From Macrostomum lignano (Eukaryota): DNA of 34,197 bases. Of this stretch, positions 1-13,366 are shown piece by piece (within the stretch, counting starts at the first letter, position 1; the number at the start of each line of letters is the position of its first letter). A model generated the notes under the pieces. The model saw only the letters and a program-made list of their open reading frames with translations, did not search any database and had not been told where the DNA came from. The position numbers were made by a program, and so were the translations under genes. The DNA is taken from the NCBI GenBank assembly GCA_002269645.1, contig NIVC01003321.1, forward strand, positions 1 through 34,197. The letters run 5' to 3'.

Positions 1-221
1 AAAACTTATTATTTGCTGCCACATCACATTGGGAACGTTTGACCAACCAGTGAAGTCGTTAAGATAGACATGGTAATTAGCGCCAGGATCCAGGCGAATC
101 GCCTGCTCTAATTTTTCAACAAACATCCCGTTTGAGTCATTAATTCGCCCGTTATTGTAATAGGAATGCTCTCCTTAGAGTGTGAAACAATGTTATTTAG
201 TCTTTCGGCTATAGCTTCCAT
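1..221 (-). CDS. Minor capsid protein (penton), N-terminal part, one frameshift, runs off window
   Basis: Manual translation: ATG at 221 (MEAIAERL...), then shifted frame INDSNGMFVEKLEQAIRLDPGANYHVYLNDFTGWSNVPNV. This resembles the Polinton penton N-terminal motif (IxL...YxVxLxxF...PNV). Lies directly downstream of the MCP. Confidence 0.7.
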
Positions 222-241
222 TTTTTTCACAAAAAAAATAT

Positions 242-1526
242 TTAAACTTTACTGGATGAATTGTTGATCATGTTAAGCTTCACCTTCCTCTCAAATGCAT
301 AGACAATGTACAGGTCCACGGGTGTTGCGGCAGTCCTTTCAATGTTAGTCACGATATTCACAGGGCTGTTATCAGTAGGCATTTGTCTGGCAGACACATC
401 AGCGCCAAACATCGGATATAGAGTTCCATATTGAAGAGCAGTGATAGCAATTCCATTGTTCTCTTTCACAGCCAAGTCGACCAACTCGCTGTAAAATTTG
501 CTAATCTTGTTCTGACTGAAATCTCTCCATTTTGTGGCAGTGCAGGGTAAAGATTATCACTGATTTCATGCTGAATGGACCGCACGTCTCCATGCATGTA
601 GCGTATAATGCTATTTGGGTTTCTCATATTAATAATGATATACCTTGGATTGCTGCATGATCCCTCTTTAATGCAGATGTTTGTTCTAGTTTCGTTTCGC
701 TCATCTCGACACATGTAGGCCGTGTATGCAACATCAATGTCCTTCTCTATTGCCTTAAGATAGTCTGCTTTTAGTGCAGTCTTTGGCTCAATGACTTCCA
801 AATACAGCTCGATTCCGGTTAGCTTCACAGCCATCCCAGTGTGGTCCGCCCCAGTCCACAACACTCTACTGCGATCATCTCTAGTCAGTCTAAAGTGTAG
901 CTAAAGTTACTAGTCAGTCGATTAAATGTATTACAGAATCCACTCATGAATCTCAATGGTACAAATACATCAACAGACCGATACAGCGGGTTCTTAGCAG
1001 CATCATCAGCACCTTGCAATGCATAGTTGTATCTCTTCTTCCTCTTTTTATAGCCACTGTCATTGATGTCTCCTTCTTTTTCATCTGCAATAAAACCCGC
1101 ACCACTTCCCAATGAATAAAATCAGGATTCTCGATCAAACAATGAGCGTCATAGACAATTCCAAAGTTGGCGATTCGCTCCAACTCAGTGCTCCATTCGA
1201 TACACTAAACTCCTTGAACATGTACGCCCAAAAGTTACTGATCAGAGCCACATCCGCATCATGCTTGTCAACGTTAGCACGAGCCGCATCCGCACCACCT
1301 TTGTCTTGAATTGAAATGTCATATGGAAGCCGCTCTTAAGACTGTGCACACTAACCAAAGACGAACATCCATTGTATGTAAATGTCAGTGTTTGGCCAGG
1401 ACCAAGATTAGTTTCATTCTGATTTTCCTGACTGGGAACTCTTACCTGAGTCGCTTTGATTGTGCTATCATCACTCAAAATAGGCTTGTTAATTTTGTAG
1501 AAAACTGGTGTCAGTGGGTCGTTCAT
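242..1526 (-). CDS. Major capsid protein (double jelly-roll), split by several frameshifts
   Basis: ORF pieces 1242-1526, 953-1183, 885-1112, 466-864 and 242-484 join into ~425 aa. Maverick MCP-like motifs: PILSDDSTI (N-term), VALISNFWAYMF, VPLRFMSGFCNTFNRL, NPRYIII. Confidence 0.8.
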
Positions 1527-1556
1527 TTTTTAACTAAAAATAAAATAAAATAAGAA

Positions 1557-2771
1557 ATGAAGCGAAAAAGTACACAGCAGATATCTGAATTGGAGAAGCT
1601 AGCACAAGCAGAGAAACGAGTTACCGGGCTAATAAATAAGGAGCAACAATCCTACAATGAGTTTGTCCAAGCAGCCACAGAGTTTCATAAACCCGGGTAT
1701 GGAGAAGCTAAGAAAAATATTGATCAGGTCAAAGAAACTATCGACGACATACAGGAAACCCAAGTGCAAAAGGTTTTGGGCAAAATTCCAGAAGCACCAC
1801 AGATACAGCCGCAACCACAGACACAACCGCAACCACAACAATCACAACAACAATCACAACCACAACAGCAACTAAAAGTGACAGATAATATTTTTGGACC
1901 AGTAGAGCGTGTCGAACATGATGGGAAATATGTATTTGGAATAAGTATGTGGAGAAAAAACATTTATAATGAACCAGTGGAATATTATATCGACATAAAT
2001 AAGGAAAATATTTCTGTTGTCAAAGGCTCAGAAACTATGAAAATTCCTTTCACAGACACCTTACTGACTTTTATGACCAAGAACCAAGAGAAAATCTCGA
2101 GAAGCAGCTAAAGAACTACAGAAATCTAGTGACTTTTCTCTTGTTAGAGATATAGAAATACTAAAGGTCCCAGAAGTTCTGAAACACATGTACGATAGCG
2201 GTGTCAACCTGACTAAATTCAAAAAGTACAAGCACTTTAAACAATGGTTCGATTTGCCAGATCAGGCGGAAGTCATAAAATATCTAGAACAACAACAGCA
2301 ACAACAACCACAACCACAGCAGCAGCAACATTTCACAGAAGTACTCAGGCAACTGGAAAATGCAGATCCGACTCAAGTAGCTAAATATAAAAATGATCAC
2401 CCAGATGCCTGGCAACACTTAGAACAACACTCTCCAGATCGAATGAACAGAATCAAGCAAAGAGTTTTCACACCTCAACAAAGACAGGCACCACATGACA
2501 GTTCCATCTCTGAAAGTGAGCAGTCTTTTGCATCACCTCCCCAGCAGCTACAAGCCCAACCAACTCCACAACCCCAAGACCAACCGCCCTCAACAGGAAA
2601 AGGAATTTCTGAAATCTACAAGCGAGTAGCGGTTCTTCTAGGAGCAGCAAAGACCGGAATGAAAGATGAAAATAGAAAAGAATTTGTCAACATCCTGGAC
2701 AAAATGATGGAAAAGAAGTATATTGACAAACGGCGAGAGAGCTTCTGCTTTCGCGGTTCAACAAAAAATAA
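1557..2771 (+). CDS. Gln/Pro-rich Polinton protein (putative core protein), frameshifted near 2095 and ~2735
   Basis: ORFs 1557-2111 and 2188-2925 join via a frame switch at ~2095. QPQP/polyQ tracts. C-terminal GKGISEIYKRVAVLLGAAKTG...EFVNILDKM resembles a conserved Maverick C-terminal motif. Confidence 0.6.
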
Positions 2772-11759: not shown

Positions 11760-11789
11760 TTTTTTAAAAAGAAAATTTAAAATAAAATA

Positions 11790-12314
11790 ATGCAACGCTC
11801 TGGTGGTAAGTTAGATTCACATGGACTGATAGAAAAGCTTCCTCATCCAAACAAAGGCTGGACACTTCCCGGCTATAAATATTGCGGGCCTTTGAATCCA
11901 CTTGAAATACAGTTAGATAAAAACAATAATCCACATCCTGGGCATGAGCCTGTGAACGAGCTAGACTCTGTCTGCATGTGGCACGATGTTAAATATAGAG
12001 ATTTTCCTGAGGAGAAGAATCGCTGGGACAAAGAAATGCTTAAGAGACTAGACAATATAGGGGCTTCAAGCGGATTTCGTGAGTCGATTGCTCGGAAGCT
12101 AGTTAAAGCTGTTATTTTTAGTAAGGCAAAGTTGGGTTTGGGGGTTCAAGGCGAAGGTGGGTGTTTGGGGAGAGAGGGCGGGTGTGCGGAAAGAGAGGGC
12201 GGAGGCTTGGAAGCAGGGTTTATTTTGTGTGCTCCTAACAAGAAATTGGGAAGACTGCTGAAAGAGCTGGGGGTAGAGAGAGCGCGCGTGGGGGGAGAGA
12301 GATTTTCACTTTAA
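11790..12314 (+). CDS. Parvovirus VP1u-type phospholipase A2 domain protein
   Basis: LPGYKYCGP Ca-binding loop; NELDSVCMWHDVKY catalytic HD motif; WDKEML; KAKLGLG. Confidence 0.88.
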   Translation: MQRSGGKLDSHGLIEKLPHPNKGWTLPGYKYCGPLNPLEIQLDKNNNPHPGHEPVNELDSVCMWHDVKYRDFPEEKNRWDKEMLKRLDNIGASSGFRESIARKLVKAVIFSKAKLGLGVQGEGGCLGREGGCAEREGGGLEAGFILCAPNKKLGRLLKELGVERARVGGERFSL

Positions 12315-12339
12315 CTGAGCCCAGCCGGGGAAGAATTCC

Positions 12340-13366
12340 GTCTCGAGTGAAGGCCAGAATGCAAAGGATTTCGGCCTCGCGCGAGGCCAAAATGAAAAGG
12401 GTTTTGGCCTTTTGGCCTTTTGGCCTTTTGGCCTTTCGGTTTTTTAACGCAATTGCCTAATGATTTCTGCAAAGTAATTAGGCTCGTGCGCTTTGTAATA
12501 AGAACCTGGAGAGACAACTGGAAACATTTTTTTATTAAGAATTTAATTTTTTTTCAAAGGGTAAGGACCCTGGGTTAGGGGGTTTAAAGTCTTTGGGATC
12601 TGGTTTCGTGTTGCGAATTGAATGTGGGGAGAAGAATGCAGATTATTTTCTGATTGTTTCTGGGTGGATGTTAGTGGATTATGTCAGTGTCAATGAGCAT
12701 AACAGGTGTTAGTGGACACCTGTTATGCACTGATTCTGTCAGGGATAATATGGATGGATTTAATACGATTATGTTCGAAGTTTTCGGAGCAAGTGCGACC
12801 CCTCCACTTTTTCATGATTCTGTCGGGGATAATATGGATGGATTTAATGGGATTATGGAGGACGTTTTGTGAGCGAGTGCGACCCCCCTTTTTTTTCTGA
12901 TTCTGTCAGGGATAATATGGATGGATTTAGGTGGATTATGGAGGACGTGAAAAATTTTGTCCCAAAAGCCCCCTCATGCCTTCTACTCTCGTGCACCCGT
13001 GCACTTTTGAGGCAAGGCGCATTGTGGCTCAGAGCTATTTTGAGTTCACCCTTATCGAAAAACATGAAAGTGCATGATCGACGATCGAGTCTGAAGTTGA
13101 AAAATCTGACTAAAATTTTGTGATAATTTAGTTTTTGCCCAGTCAACTCCAGTTTCAAATTTTGCTCCAGTGATGCCCTTGACCAGAGCGACACATTATT
13201 CAGGTTCAAAAGATATGCAGAAAATATCAGATCGGGTAATTTTCGGACTGCAATCTCTGTTTCAGCCAATCAGAATCGGGTTTGTGTGCCTGATTCGCAT
13301 CGGGGTAAAAATCGGATCAATAAATAATTCATAATGCGCTATAATTTATATCTTTTTTGACTATCT
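12340..13366. repeat. Candidate right terminal inverted repeat / subterminal non-coding region of the Polinton
   Basis: About 1 kb with no credible gene, between the last ORF and the host boundary. Contains a palindrome, short repeats and a CCAAT box. The partner TIR is outside the window, so the inner boundary is a guess. Confidence 0.5.
12731..12950. repeat. Three ~84-bp subterminal direct repeats (TGATTCTGTCAGGGATAATATGGATGGATTTA...)
   Basis: Copies start at 12731, 12815 and 12898. Confidence 0.9.

What the first reader, a model, noticed from the sequence alone, without database searches (positions are those of the whole stretch)
1..13366. Endogenous adintovirus-like Polinton with a full virion module in a probable flatworm genome
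Seen: pPolB, integrase, protease, ATPase, MCP, penton and about six accessory genes in one contiguous element. Known: this gene set defines Polintons/Mavericks (adintoviruses), which are predicted to form virions. Inference: the host looks Macrostomum-like, and the gene order and accessory set may define an undescribed lineage.
Basis: partly seen in the sequence, partly recalled or inferred. Interest (0 to 1): 0.7.

Follow-up and report, generated by a model that had tools for sequence, protein, structure and literature searches.

The report
Integrated Polinton virus in Macrostomum flatworm
This is a real, virus-like Polinton element sitting in the genome of the laboratory flatworm Macrostomum lignano; such elements are common in animals, but this one has an unusually divergent capsid protein and may be intact in the living worm.

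Summary
Confirmed. Bases 1 to about 13,366 hold a Polinton (Maverick, polintovirus): protein-primed DNA polymerase with vOTU and HNH motifs, rve integrase, protease, A32-type ATPase, double jelly-roll capsid protein, a probable penton cut by the contig end, and six accessory ORFs, among them a parvovirus-type PLA2 and an adenovirus protein X homologue. The host is Macrostomum lignano (100% match to a named gene; the window is the whole 34,197-base contig), so the second TIR and the TSD cannot be checked. Most genes are frameshifted, but 15 of 15 supported frame changes go the same way and no premature stop was seen, which points to assembly error more than decay. Novelty is limited: a published table already lists 78 integrase-linked polymerases in this assembly, 8 with this element's integrase-polymerase spacing; this copy is not among them. 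What I found undescribed: a divergent lineage (polymerase at most 47% identical to the relatives found; capsid family of 12 unnamed proteins) in which PLA2 and protein X are separate genes on opposite strands instead of the fused PLA2X. Virions are inferred, not shown. New member of a known kind.

The parts
1..221 (-). Probable penton (minor capsid) gene, 5' part only, cut by the contig end; one frame change
   Evidence: Directly downstream of the MCP, same strand, with the shared upstream T/A motif; resemblance to Polinton penton N-termini is recalled, not shown; no hit in Pfam, PHROGs, NCBIfam or PDB
242..1526 (-). Double jelly-roll major capsid protein gene, in six frame-shifted pieces
   Evidence: Pieces tile natural relative P0124; 70-77% identity to 7 and 41-46% to 5 of 12 relatives; PF21738 above cut-off in 3 of 3 relatives rescanned; model of P0124 matches DJR capsid proteins
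1557..2771 (+). ORF A, Q/P-rich, about 400 codons, broken; likely core or cement protein
   Evidence: ORF pieces; G-x-G-hydrophobic motif near the C-terminus; no meaningful family hit; role inferred; end approximate
2788..3360 (+). ORF B, small protein with two G-x-G-L motifs, followed by a 21-bp tandem array (3201-3348)
   Evidence: no meaningful family hit; limits approximate; protease-processed virion protein by inference
3388..4187 (+). A32/FtsK-type genome packaging ATPase, two pieces
   Evidence: PF04665 E=0.00079, below cut-off; Walker A in the first piece, Walker B in the second; low-confidence model of the second piece has a VV A32-like packaging ATPase as top BFVD hit, E=0.0083; PDB-wide search uninformative
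4204..4937 (+). Coiled-coil-like ORF with an internal repeat, broken; possible fibre
   Evidence: only weak coiled-coil-type hits; fibre role is inference
5108..5878 (+). Two-helix membrane protein, SLATT-like, broken
   Evidence: Atlas feature search: best score 0.89 (unnamed), SLATT clusters at 0.77-0.81, a lead only; SLATT labels occur in the Starrett Fig. S2 maps
5845..6243 (-). Adenain/Ulp1-type cysteine protease, three supported pieces
   Evidence: PF00770 E=0.0012 and PF02902 E=0.0019, below cut-off; the only PDB hits at E<=1 are adenovirus proteases, E=0.06-0.11; His, Asp and Gln/Cys motifs visible
6332..10166 (-). [quoted passage not shown]
   Evidence: PF03175 above cut-off, PF02945 E=0.00013; ExoI, ExoII, PolA, PolB, PolC, HNH and vOTU Cys/His motifs all present; best relatives 36-46%
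10358..10747 (-). Stand-alone adenovirus protein X (mu)-like gene
   Evidence: PF05829 E=3.3e-07 and 4.6e-08, above cut-off; no PLA2 domain in this ORF
10764..11759 (-). rve (DDE) integrase, 331 aa, unbroken, no chromodomain hit
   Evidence: PF00665 E=6.8e-10, only family listed; foamy virus integrase E=0.003; D, D, E motifs at residues about 73, 132, 167
11790..12314 (+). Parvovirus VP1u-type phospholipase A2, unbroken, opposite strand to the integrase
   Evidence: PF08398 E=7.1e-14; no protein X hit on this ORF; AAV VP1 best PDB hits; calcium-loop and HD motifs present
12315..13366 (.). Non-coding terminal region, probable right TIR, with 84-bp tandem repeats (12,730-12,948) and an 8-bp array (12,402-12,436)
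   Evidence: no inverted partner in the window; exact end unproven
14135..14605 (-). First host-like, GC-rich exon beyond the element
   Evidence: GC rises to 0.56-0.73 from 14,100; tetranucleotides switch to the host type near 14,000; no family hit
28090..31590 (+). Host DEP-domain gene that identifies the organism (BOX15_Mlig033417g3)
   Evidence: PF00610; 100% match to the named Macrostomum lignano protein, seen on a contig of 34,197 bases; exons mapped

Best explanation
An integrated copy (provirus) of a Polinton/polintovirus with an Alpha-class (pPolB1-type) polymerase, in the Macrostomum lignano genome, cut off on the left by the end of the contig. Shown here: the gene set, the catalytic motifs, the capsid fold of a close natural relative, the host. 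Inferred from what is known of the family: a linear double-stranded copy is replicated by the polymerase primed on its own terminal-protein domain, which the vOTU protease cuts free; the rve integrase inserts the linear DNA by its terminal inverted repeats and leaves a short target duplication; MCP and penton build an icosahedral shell, the A32-type ATPase packs the DNA, the protease matures glycine-motif proteins (protein X, ORF A, ORF B, PLA2), and the PLA2 helps the particle cross an endosomal membrane on entry. The frameshifts are more likely consensus errors in a poorly polished repeat at a contig end than decay (about 65:35), so the copy in the worm may be young and largely intact. It probably belongs to a minority subfamily of the worm's Polintons with the integrase just upstream of the polymerase.
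For: Gene identities. Host and contig length; a second Macrostomum model (UniProt A0A1I8IV92) maps collinearly over 22,267-31,587. Frameshifts: 15 of 15 homology- or motif-supported frame changes have one sign (MCP 5; polymerase 7; protease 2 and ATPase 1), P=3e-5 to 5e-3 for a 50-70% prior; no same-frame stop among them, where neutral decay predicts 1.5-8.6 under assumed rates; every catalytic motif tested survives. The assembly was Canu on PacBio reads polished with Pilon (PMC5730564). 78 integrase-linked polymerase ORFs of 900 aa or more occur in this assembly, 50 flagged with TIRs, 47 of 1,200 aa or more; 8 have the integrase 484-935 nt upstream (598 nt here), 6 of those 8 with TIRs.
Against: Second TIR, TSD and read support for the junction could not be checked. 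The penton is unverified. Protease and ATPase are below Pfam cut-offs. The capsid model is of relative P0124, not of the window's gene, and is low-confidence (pLDDT 50.7; best VIA Z 8.9, rmsd 8.4, 260 aligned). If two close double frame changes are each counted as one opposite event the tally is 11 of 13 (P=0.011-0.20), and the no-stop test gives P(0) from 0.0002 to 0.22 depending on an assumed substitution-to-indel ratio. The 8 siblings are matched by spacing only, not by sequence. No expression, episome or particle evidence exists here.
Confidence: 0.88

Rival explanations
1. A genuinely decayed endogenous Polinton: the frameshifts are real mutations and this copy is a dead relic.
For: At least 15 frameshifts in about 6 kb of core genes; the assembly was polished with Illumina data; integrase and PLA2 are unbroken, so damage is uneven; the statistical tests weaken under lenient assumptions.
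Against: One-directional frame changes, no premature stop in the aligned spans, intact catalytic motifs. The LINE next door has a probable in-frame stop at 18,941-18,943, as real decay gives.
Confidence: 0.3
2. The element is real but the junction is a misassembly, or the element is a free or contaminating virus (for example of a food diatom or another culture inhabitant) fused to a host contig.
For: It runs off a short contig in a repeat-rich, partly duplicated genome; GC 40% against 54.5% for the host part; only one end is present; the capsid relatives all sit on short unnamed contigs of 930-8,533 bases.
Against: The same assembly holds 78 integrase-linked polymerases, many deep inside contigs of hundreds of kb, 8 with this spacing; named polymerase relatives are all from animals (9 of 9 named among 120 listed); a TIR-like non-coding end with tandem repeats lies between the last gene and the host DNA.
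Confidence: 0.08
3. A Polinton that moves only as a transposon; the capsid module is vestigial and no infectious particle is made.
For: No particle evidence here; for animal Polintons virions remain largely inferred (PMC4028283 passages; one co-purification observation in PMC8502044).
Against: Several full-length capsid relatives of 422-438 aa are conserved at 70-77% to this copy, and entry and core proteins (PLA2, protein X) are kept with motifs intact, which a purely intragenomic element would be expected to lose.
Confidence: 0.3

Closest known systems
Polintons/Mavericks (polintoviruses, Orthopolintovirales), pPolB1 class of Jeong et al. 2023 (PMC10748475)
   Same: pPolB, rve integrase, protease, packaging ATPase, DJR MCP, probable penton; animal host; that paper's tables list 748 pPolB1 loci in Platyhelminthes, 78 of them in this assembly.
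   Different: This copy is not among the 78 rows (its longest polymerase piece is 486 aa, their filter was 900 aa); 58 of 78 rows have the integrase downstream of the polymerase, whereas here it is 598 nt upstream, as in 8 of 78.
Alpha adintoviruses (Starrett et al. 2021, PMC8502044), e.g. Corynactis coral adintovirus
   Same: PF03175-type polymerase with OTU Cys/His; Corynactis PolB is a top-ten hit (39%); PLA2 and protein X domains, the hallmarks of the Alpha virion module; SLATT-like accessory gene.
   Different: PLA2 and protein X are two genes on opposite strands, separated by the integrase, not one PLA2X gene; the integrase has no chromodomain hit; no named adintovirus hexon was retrieved by the capsid searches (0 of 12 relatives bear such a name).
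Stylophora pistillata Polinton gene model (P0004)
   Same: PLA2 next to the rve integrase and upstream of a pPolB with an EndoVII insert.
   Different: There PLA2 and integrase are read in one direction in a fused model with a chromodomain; identity only 32-43%.
Planarian (Schmidtea) Polintons and the Rhabditophora Orthopolintovirales insertion of bioRxiv 10.1101/2025.04.19.649669
   Same: Polintons in free-living flatworm genomes; silenced by PIWI in Schmidtea (PMC8532177).
   Different: No sequence comparison was possible; the passages read do not name Macrostomum, and the preprint's supplements were closed.

Membership tests
Polinton/Maverick (polintovirus) | [quoted passage not shown] | tested here: met
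   PF03175 above cut-off; profile covered 41-1229 of 1235, all motifs tested present
Polinton/Maverick (polintovirus) | Retrovirus-like rve integrase | tested here: met
   PF00665 above cut-off; foamy virus integrase hit
Polinton/Maverick (polintovirus) | Double jelly-roll major capsid protein | tested here: met
   Pieces 70-77% identical to relatives with PF21738 above cut-off; all 22 Foldseek PDB rows shown are DJR-virus capsid entries, best E=9.8e-09; 7 of the top 8 VIA rows are DJR-type proteins
Polinton/Maverick (polintovirus) | Adenovirus-like cysteine protease | tested here: met
   Three clan hits below cut-off, adenovirus proteases the only PDB hits, catalytic motifs visible; support moderate because the gene is in short pieces
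Polinton/Maverick (polintovirus) | A32/FtsK-type packaging ATPase | tested here: met
   PF04665 below cut-off, Walker A and B, top BFVD hit an A32-like packaging ATPase at E=0.0083 from a low-confidence model; support moderate
Polinton/Maverick (polintovirus) | Single jelly-roll penton near the MCP | tested here: inconclusive
   Only about 73 codons present; position fits; no search matched
Polinton/Maverick (polintovirus) | Terminal inverted repeats of 100-1,500 bp | tested here: inconclusive
   One TIR-like end; no partner in the window because the contig ends inside the element
Polinton/Maverick (polintovirus) | Target-site duplication of 5-8 bp | not testable with these tools
   Left end absent; no eukaryotic genome collection on hand
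Alpha adintovirus | OTU-bearing polymerase of the pfam03175 type | tested here: met
   PF03175; OTU-type Cys motif shared with 58 of 62 and His motif with 52 of 62 relatives (motif patterns recalled, domain concept from bioRxiv 2024.03.18.585575)
Alpha adintovirus | PLA2X: PLA2 with a C-terminal protein X-like domain in one gene (characteristic of the Mayetiola-class virion module) | tested here: not met
   PF08398 and PF05829 fall on two different ORFs, on opposite strands, 1 kb apart; I therefore file it as Alpha-like, not as a member of that module class
Alpha adintovirus | Hexon and penton cluster with the Mayetiola cognates | tested here: inconclusive
   No named hexon among 12 relatives; both searches have limited reach; reference hexons were not on hand
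Beta adintovirus | Divergent polymerase under 30% identical to the pfam03175 type | tested here: not met
   Above-cut-off PF03175 hit and 38-44% identity to Alpha-panel Corynactis PolB
Beta adintovirus | GasderminX and Cupiennin accessory genes | tested here: inconclusive
   No such Pfam hit on the pieces scanned, but pieces are short and the left end is missing
Polintovirus as an infectious virus | Forms particles; free linear genome | not testable with these tools
   Needs reads or bench work

The most novel reading that the evidence does not exclude
A currently active, particle-forming polintovirus lineage of Macrostomum and perhaps other small aquatic animals, distinct at genus level (own capsid family; PLA2 entry enzyme and protein X core protein as separate genes, closer to the adenovirus arrangement of a free-standing protein X), with intact copies in a cultured model animal. 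That would give a bench system for the open question whether animal Polintons make infectious virions.
Probability: 0.2. Interest if true: 0.72.

Novelty: new member of a known kind. Interest (0 to 1): 0.36.

Why it matters
Polintons are widespread in animals and already counted in this genome, so the find is not surprising in kind. It matters in two modest ways. First, it marks a divergent lineage that I did not find described: the capsid protein has only 12 detectable relatives, all unnamed, and the PLA2X gene of Alpha adintoviruses appears here as two separate genes. Second, whether animal Polintons really form infectious particles is a long-standing open question, and M. lignano is a cultured, transgenic, PIWI-studied model whose assembly holds dozens of long unbroken Polinton polymerase frames; it is a place where particles or free linear genomes could simply be looked for.

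Tried and rejected
Second TIR in the window: none. Exact look-up of six window proteins: 0 of 6 in the collection. Source names for the capsid relatives: a cluster look-up could not be made; the later homologue search gave only source labels, and one generic name. GTDB genome scan with the capsid alignment: 53 pattern matches, 0 confirmed. Phage collection with P0124: no match. P0125 (1,532 aa, coiled-coil repeats) was rejected as a spurious capsid hit (short repeated low-score matches). PHROGs and NCBIfam added only endonuclease VII, transposase, DNA polymerase and weak or irrelevant hits. PDB sequence searches for protein X and the penton piece: nothing. VIA search of the ATPase model: best Z 5.3 to a metacaspase, uninformative. 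IQ-TREE did not finish; the FastTree placement next to Temnothorax and P0001 is a meeting of long branches and is not used. Rfam: no match in the window. A 138-codon ORF at 12,853-13,269 has no family hit and lies in the repeat region; treated as non-coding. The HNH insert in the polymerase was considered as a novelty and rejected: 62 of 62 relatives share the motif. Literature: no paper describing Macrostomum Polintons in searches; 'Maverick' and 'Polinton' occur 0 times in the main texts of PMC5730564, PMC4604429 and PMC10468722 and in the three supplements of PMC5730564. Unseen material that may bear on novelty: Repbase, the cut part of the Starrett supplement (Table S1, File S2), the closed supplements of bioRxiv 2025.04.19.649669, and subscription papers.
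Full report
Observation. The left 12.3 kb of the window is 40% GC, against 54.5% from base 14,001 on, and is 95% covered by twelve tightly packed reading frames. Pfam scores above cut-off were obtained for a protein-primed DNA polymerase (PF03175, E=1.8e-10), an rve integrase (PF00665, E=6.8e-10), a parvovirus-type phospholipase A2 (PF08398, E=7.1e-14) and adenovirus protein X (PF05829, E=3.3e-07); protease (PF00770, E=0.0012) and A32 ATPase (PF04665, E=0.0012) scored below cut-off on short pieces. Read from the right end the order is: non-coding end with 84-bp repeats, PLA2 (opposite strand), integrase, protein X, polymerase, protease, then on the other strand a SLATT-like gene, a coiled-coil gene, the ATPase and two unknown ORFs, then major capsid and a probable penton that runs off base 1.

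Host and record. An exon at 29,592-30,293 is 100% identical to hypothetical protein BOX15_Mlig033417g3 of Macrostomum lignano, and the longest contig on which that protein was seen is 34,197 bases, the length of the window (3 hits among 8,000 candidates, all M. lignano). The window is therefore a whole contig and the element is cut by the contig end, so the second TIR and the target duplication cannot be read. A second M. lignano model maps collinearly over 22,267-31,587. That the BOX15 prefix belongs to assembly Mlig_3_7 is recalled; the accession NIVC00000000 for that assembly is in PMC5730564 (passages), and the published table links NIVC01 contigs to GCA_002269645.1.

Polymerase. The longest piece (486 aa) found 6,049 relatives among 8,000 candidates of 852-2,430 aa; the 120 listed are 36-46% identical, and the 9 that name an organism are all animal-derived, including Corynactis coral adintovirus PolB. 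Against a profile of 62 full-length relatives the separate pieces cover positions 41-1229 of 1235 in order, and ExoI, ExoII, PolA, PolB, PolC, the HNH motif and the vOTU Cys and His motifs are all present. In a FastTree of that one piece with 113 relatives (7 of 120 left out for coverage under 85%) the window has the longest end branch, 0.95 against a median of 0.097, best identity 47%; its position is unreliable and the tree has no Beta or outgroup sequences. The lack of close relatives is partly a database effect: the worm's own copies were not among the hits, and repeat-overlapping transcripts were excluded from the deposited annotation.

Capsid. A 139-aa piece found 3 hits among 1.84 billion representatives, two real and one spurious. 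A two-sequence profile then found 12 proteins among 4,726 candidates, all with PF21738, all on short contigs, none naming an organism. The six window pieces are 70-77% identical to seven of them and 41-46% to five. The natural 423-aa relative P0124 was folded with these 12 (pLDDT 50.7); Foldseek's best PDB matches are PBCV-1, Sputnik, iridovirus and mavirus capsid entries (best E=9.8e-09, TM about 0.3), the best BFVD matches an adomavirus LO7 and a MELD virus protein, and VIA gave ASFV p72 (Z 8.9, rmsd 8.4, 260 aligned) and faustovirus MCP. The fold is a double jelly roll; the model is too poor for finer placement. The penton rests on position, a shared start motif and recalled resemblance only.

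Are the genes really broken? Integrase and PLA2 are open; the others are in pieces. Fifteen frame changes have homology or motif support (capsid 5, polymerase 7, protease 2, ATPase 1). All go the same way and none of the junctions is a same-frame stop. Fifteen of 15 has P=3e-5 to 5e-3 for a 50-70% prior; counting two close pairs as single opposite events gives 11 of 13, P=0.011-0.20. With 3-10 substitutions per frameshifting indel (assumed) neutral decay predicts 1.5-8.6 stops, P(0)=0.0002-0.22. The neighbouring LINE has a probable in-frame stop. The assembly was made with Canu from PacBio reads and polished with Pilon; that short-read polishing does poorly in multi-copy repeats at contig ends is general knowledge. 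I put assembly error at about 65%, decay at 35%. Frame changes in ORFs without homologues were not counted.

What is already known. Jeong et al. 2023 (PMC10748475; passages and Suppl. Tables 2-3 rows seen) screened 7,897 assemblies for integrase-linked polymerase ORFs of 900 aa or more and list 748 in Platyhelminthes, 78 in this assembly. Of the 78, 58 have the integrase downstream (median gap 6.7 kb, median score 291) and 20 upstream; 8 have it 484-935 nt upstream with scores of 62-104, like the 598 nt here, and 6 of these 8 are flagged with TIRs. No row matches this contig's coordinates in either orientation. Planarian Polintons are PIWI targets (PMC8532177, passages), and a 2025-26 preprint reports an Orthopolintovirales insertion in Rhabditophora without naming the species in the passages read (supplements closed). 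I found no description of Macrostomum Polintons in searches. Papers seen: PMC8502044 (parts 1-4 of 6, supplement in part), bioRxiv 2024.03.18.585575, PMC4028283, PMC6431247, PMC10175614, PMC11131425, PMC5730564 (passages), PMC4604429, PMC10468722, PMC9241645 (term searches only).

Comparison. It works like an Alpha adintovirus: pfam03175-type polymerase with OTU residues, PLA2 and protein X. It differs in that Starrett et al. describe these two as one PLA2X gene, while here they are separate ORFs on opposite strands with the integrase between them, and the integrase shows no chromodomain hit. PLA2 next to the integrase also occurs in a Stylophora gene model, so the adjacency is not unique. Membership in Polintons is met for five of the six core genes; penton and TIR are inconclusive and the TSD is untestable. 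I file it as a Polinton of the pPolB1/Alpha polymerase class, probably of an undescribed subfamily.

Mechanism. Shown: gene content, motifs, fold, host. Inferred from the family: protein-primed replication of a linear copy with vOTU release of the terminal protein (bioRxiv 2024.03.18.585575), integration by rve with a short target duplication, packaging into a DJR capsid, maturation by the protease at glycine motifs (such motifs occur in protein X, PLA2, ORF A and ORF B, but also once in the polymerase and the coiled-coil ORF, so this is weak), and PLA2-assisted entry. No particle, transcript or free genome has been shown.

Verdict. Real, correctly named, host confirmed; a new member of a well-known kind, with a divergent capsid and one architectural variation. 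Interest 0.36; about 0.7 if particles were found.

Noticed in passing
window 221, 1526, 11759, 10166 (- strand) and 3388, 5108 (+ strand): A T-run followed by an A-run directly before ATG precedes 6 of the predicted starts; 7 matches in the element against a mean of 2.0 (max 6) in 200 dinucleotide shuffles and 1 in the host part. The pattern was chosen after seeing the data. It may be a shared promoter or leader signal of the element.
   Followed up: partly
window 16,430-19,366 (+): Decayed non-LTR retrotransposon (RVT_1 hits) with frameshifts and a probable in-frame stop, flanked by two related 39-bp tandem arrays at 16,005-16,279 and 19,354-19,530, as if inserted into one minisatellite.
   Followed up: partly
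window 19,514-19,927 and 21,700-22,392 (-): Exons of a host C2H2 zinc-finger gene.
   Followed up: no
window 14,135-14,605 and 15,063-15,365 (-): Exon-like pieces of an unidentified host gene ending about 770 bases from the element; no Pfam or convincing PDB hit.
   Followed up: partly
window 14,600-34,000: About a dozen minisatellite arrays of 19-42 bp period, several at exon-intron borders of the host genes, in line with the repeat-rich genome.
   Followed up: no
window 3,201-3,348 (+): Seven copies of a 21-bp unit between ORF B and the ATPase; in frame it reads as a heptapeptide repeat, so it may be coding or an untranslated spacer.
   Followed up: no
window 23,500-25,300 (-): GC-rich ORF pieces that look like part of another retroelement and were absorbed into a Macrostomum gene model (P0122); no Pfam hit on the pieces scanned.
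   Followed up: no
P0124, P0126-P0136: The capsid relatives fall into two tight groups (72-84% and 65-82% within, 41-47% between), all from short unnamed contigs, suggesting two sister lineages whose hosts are unknown.
   Followed up: partly
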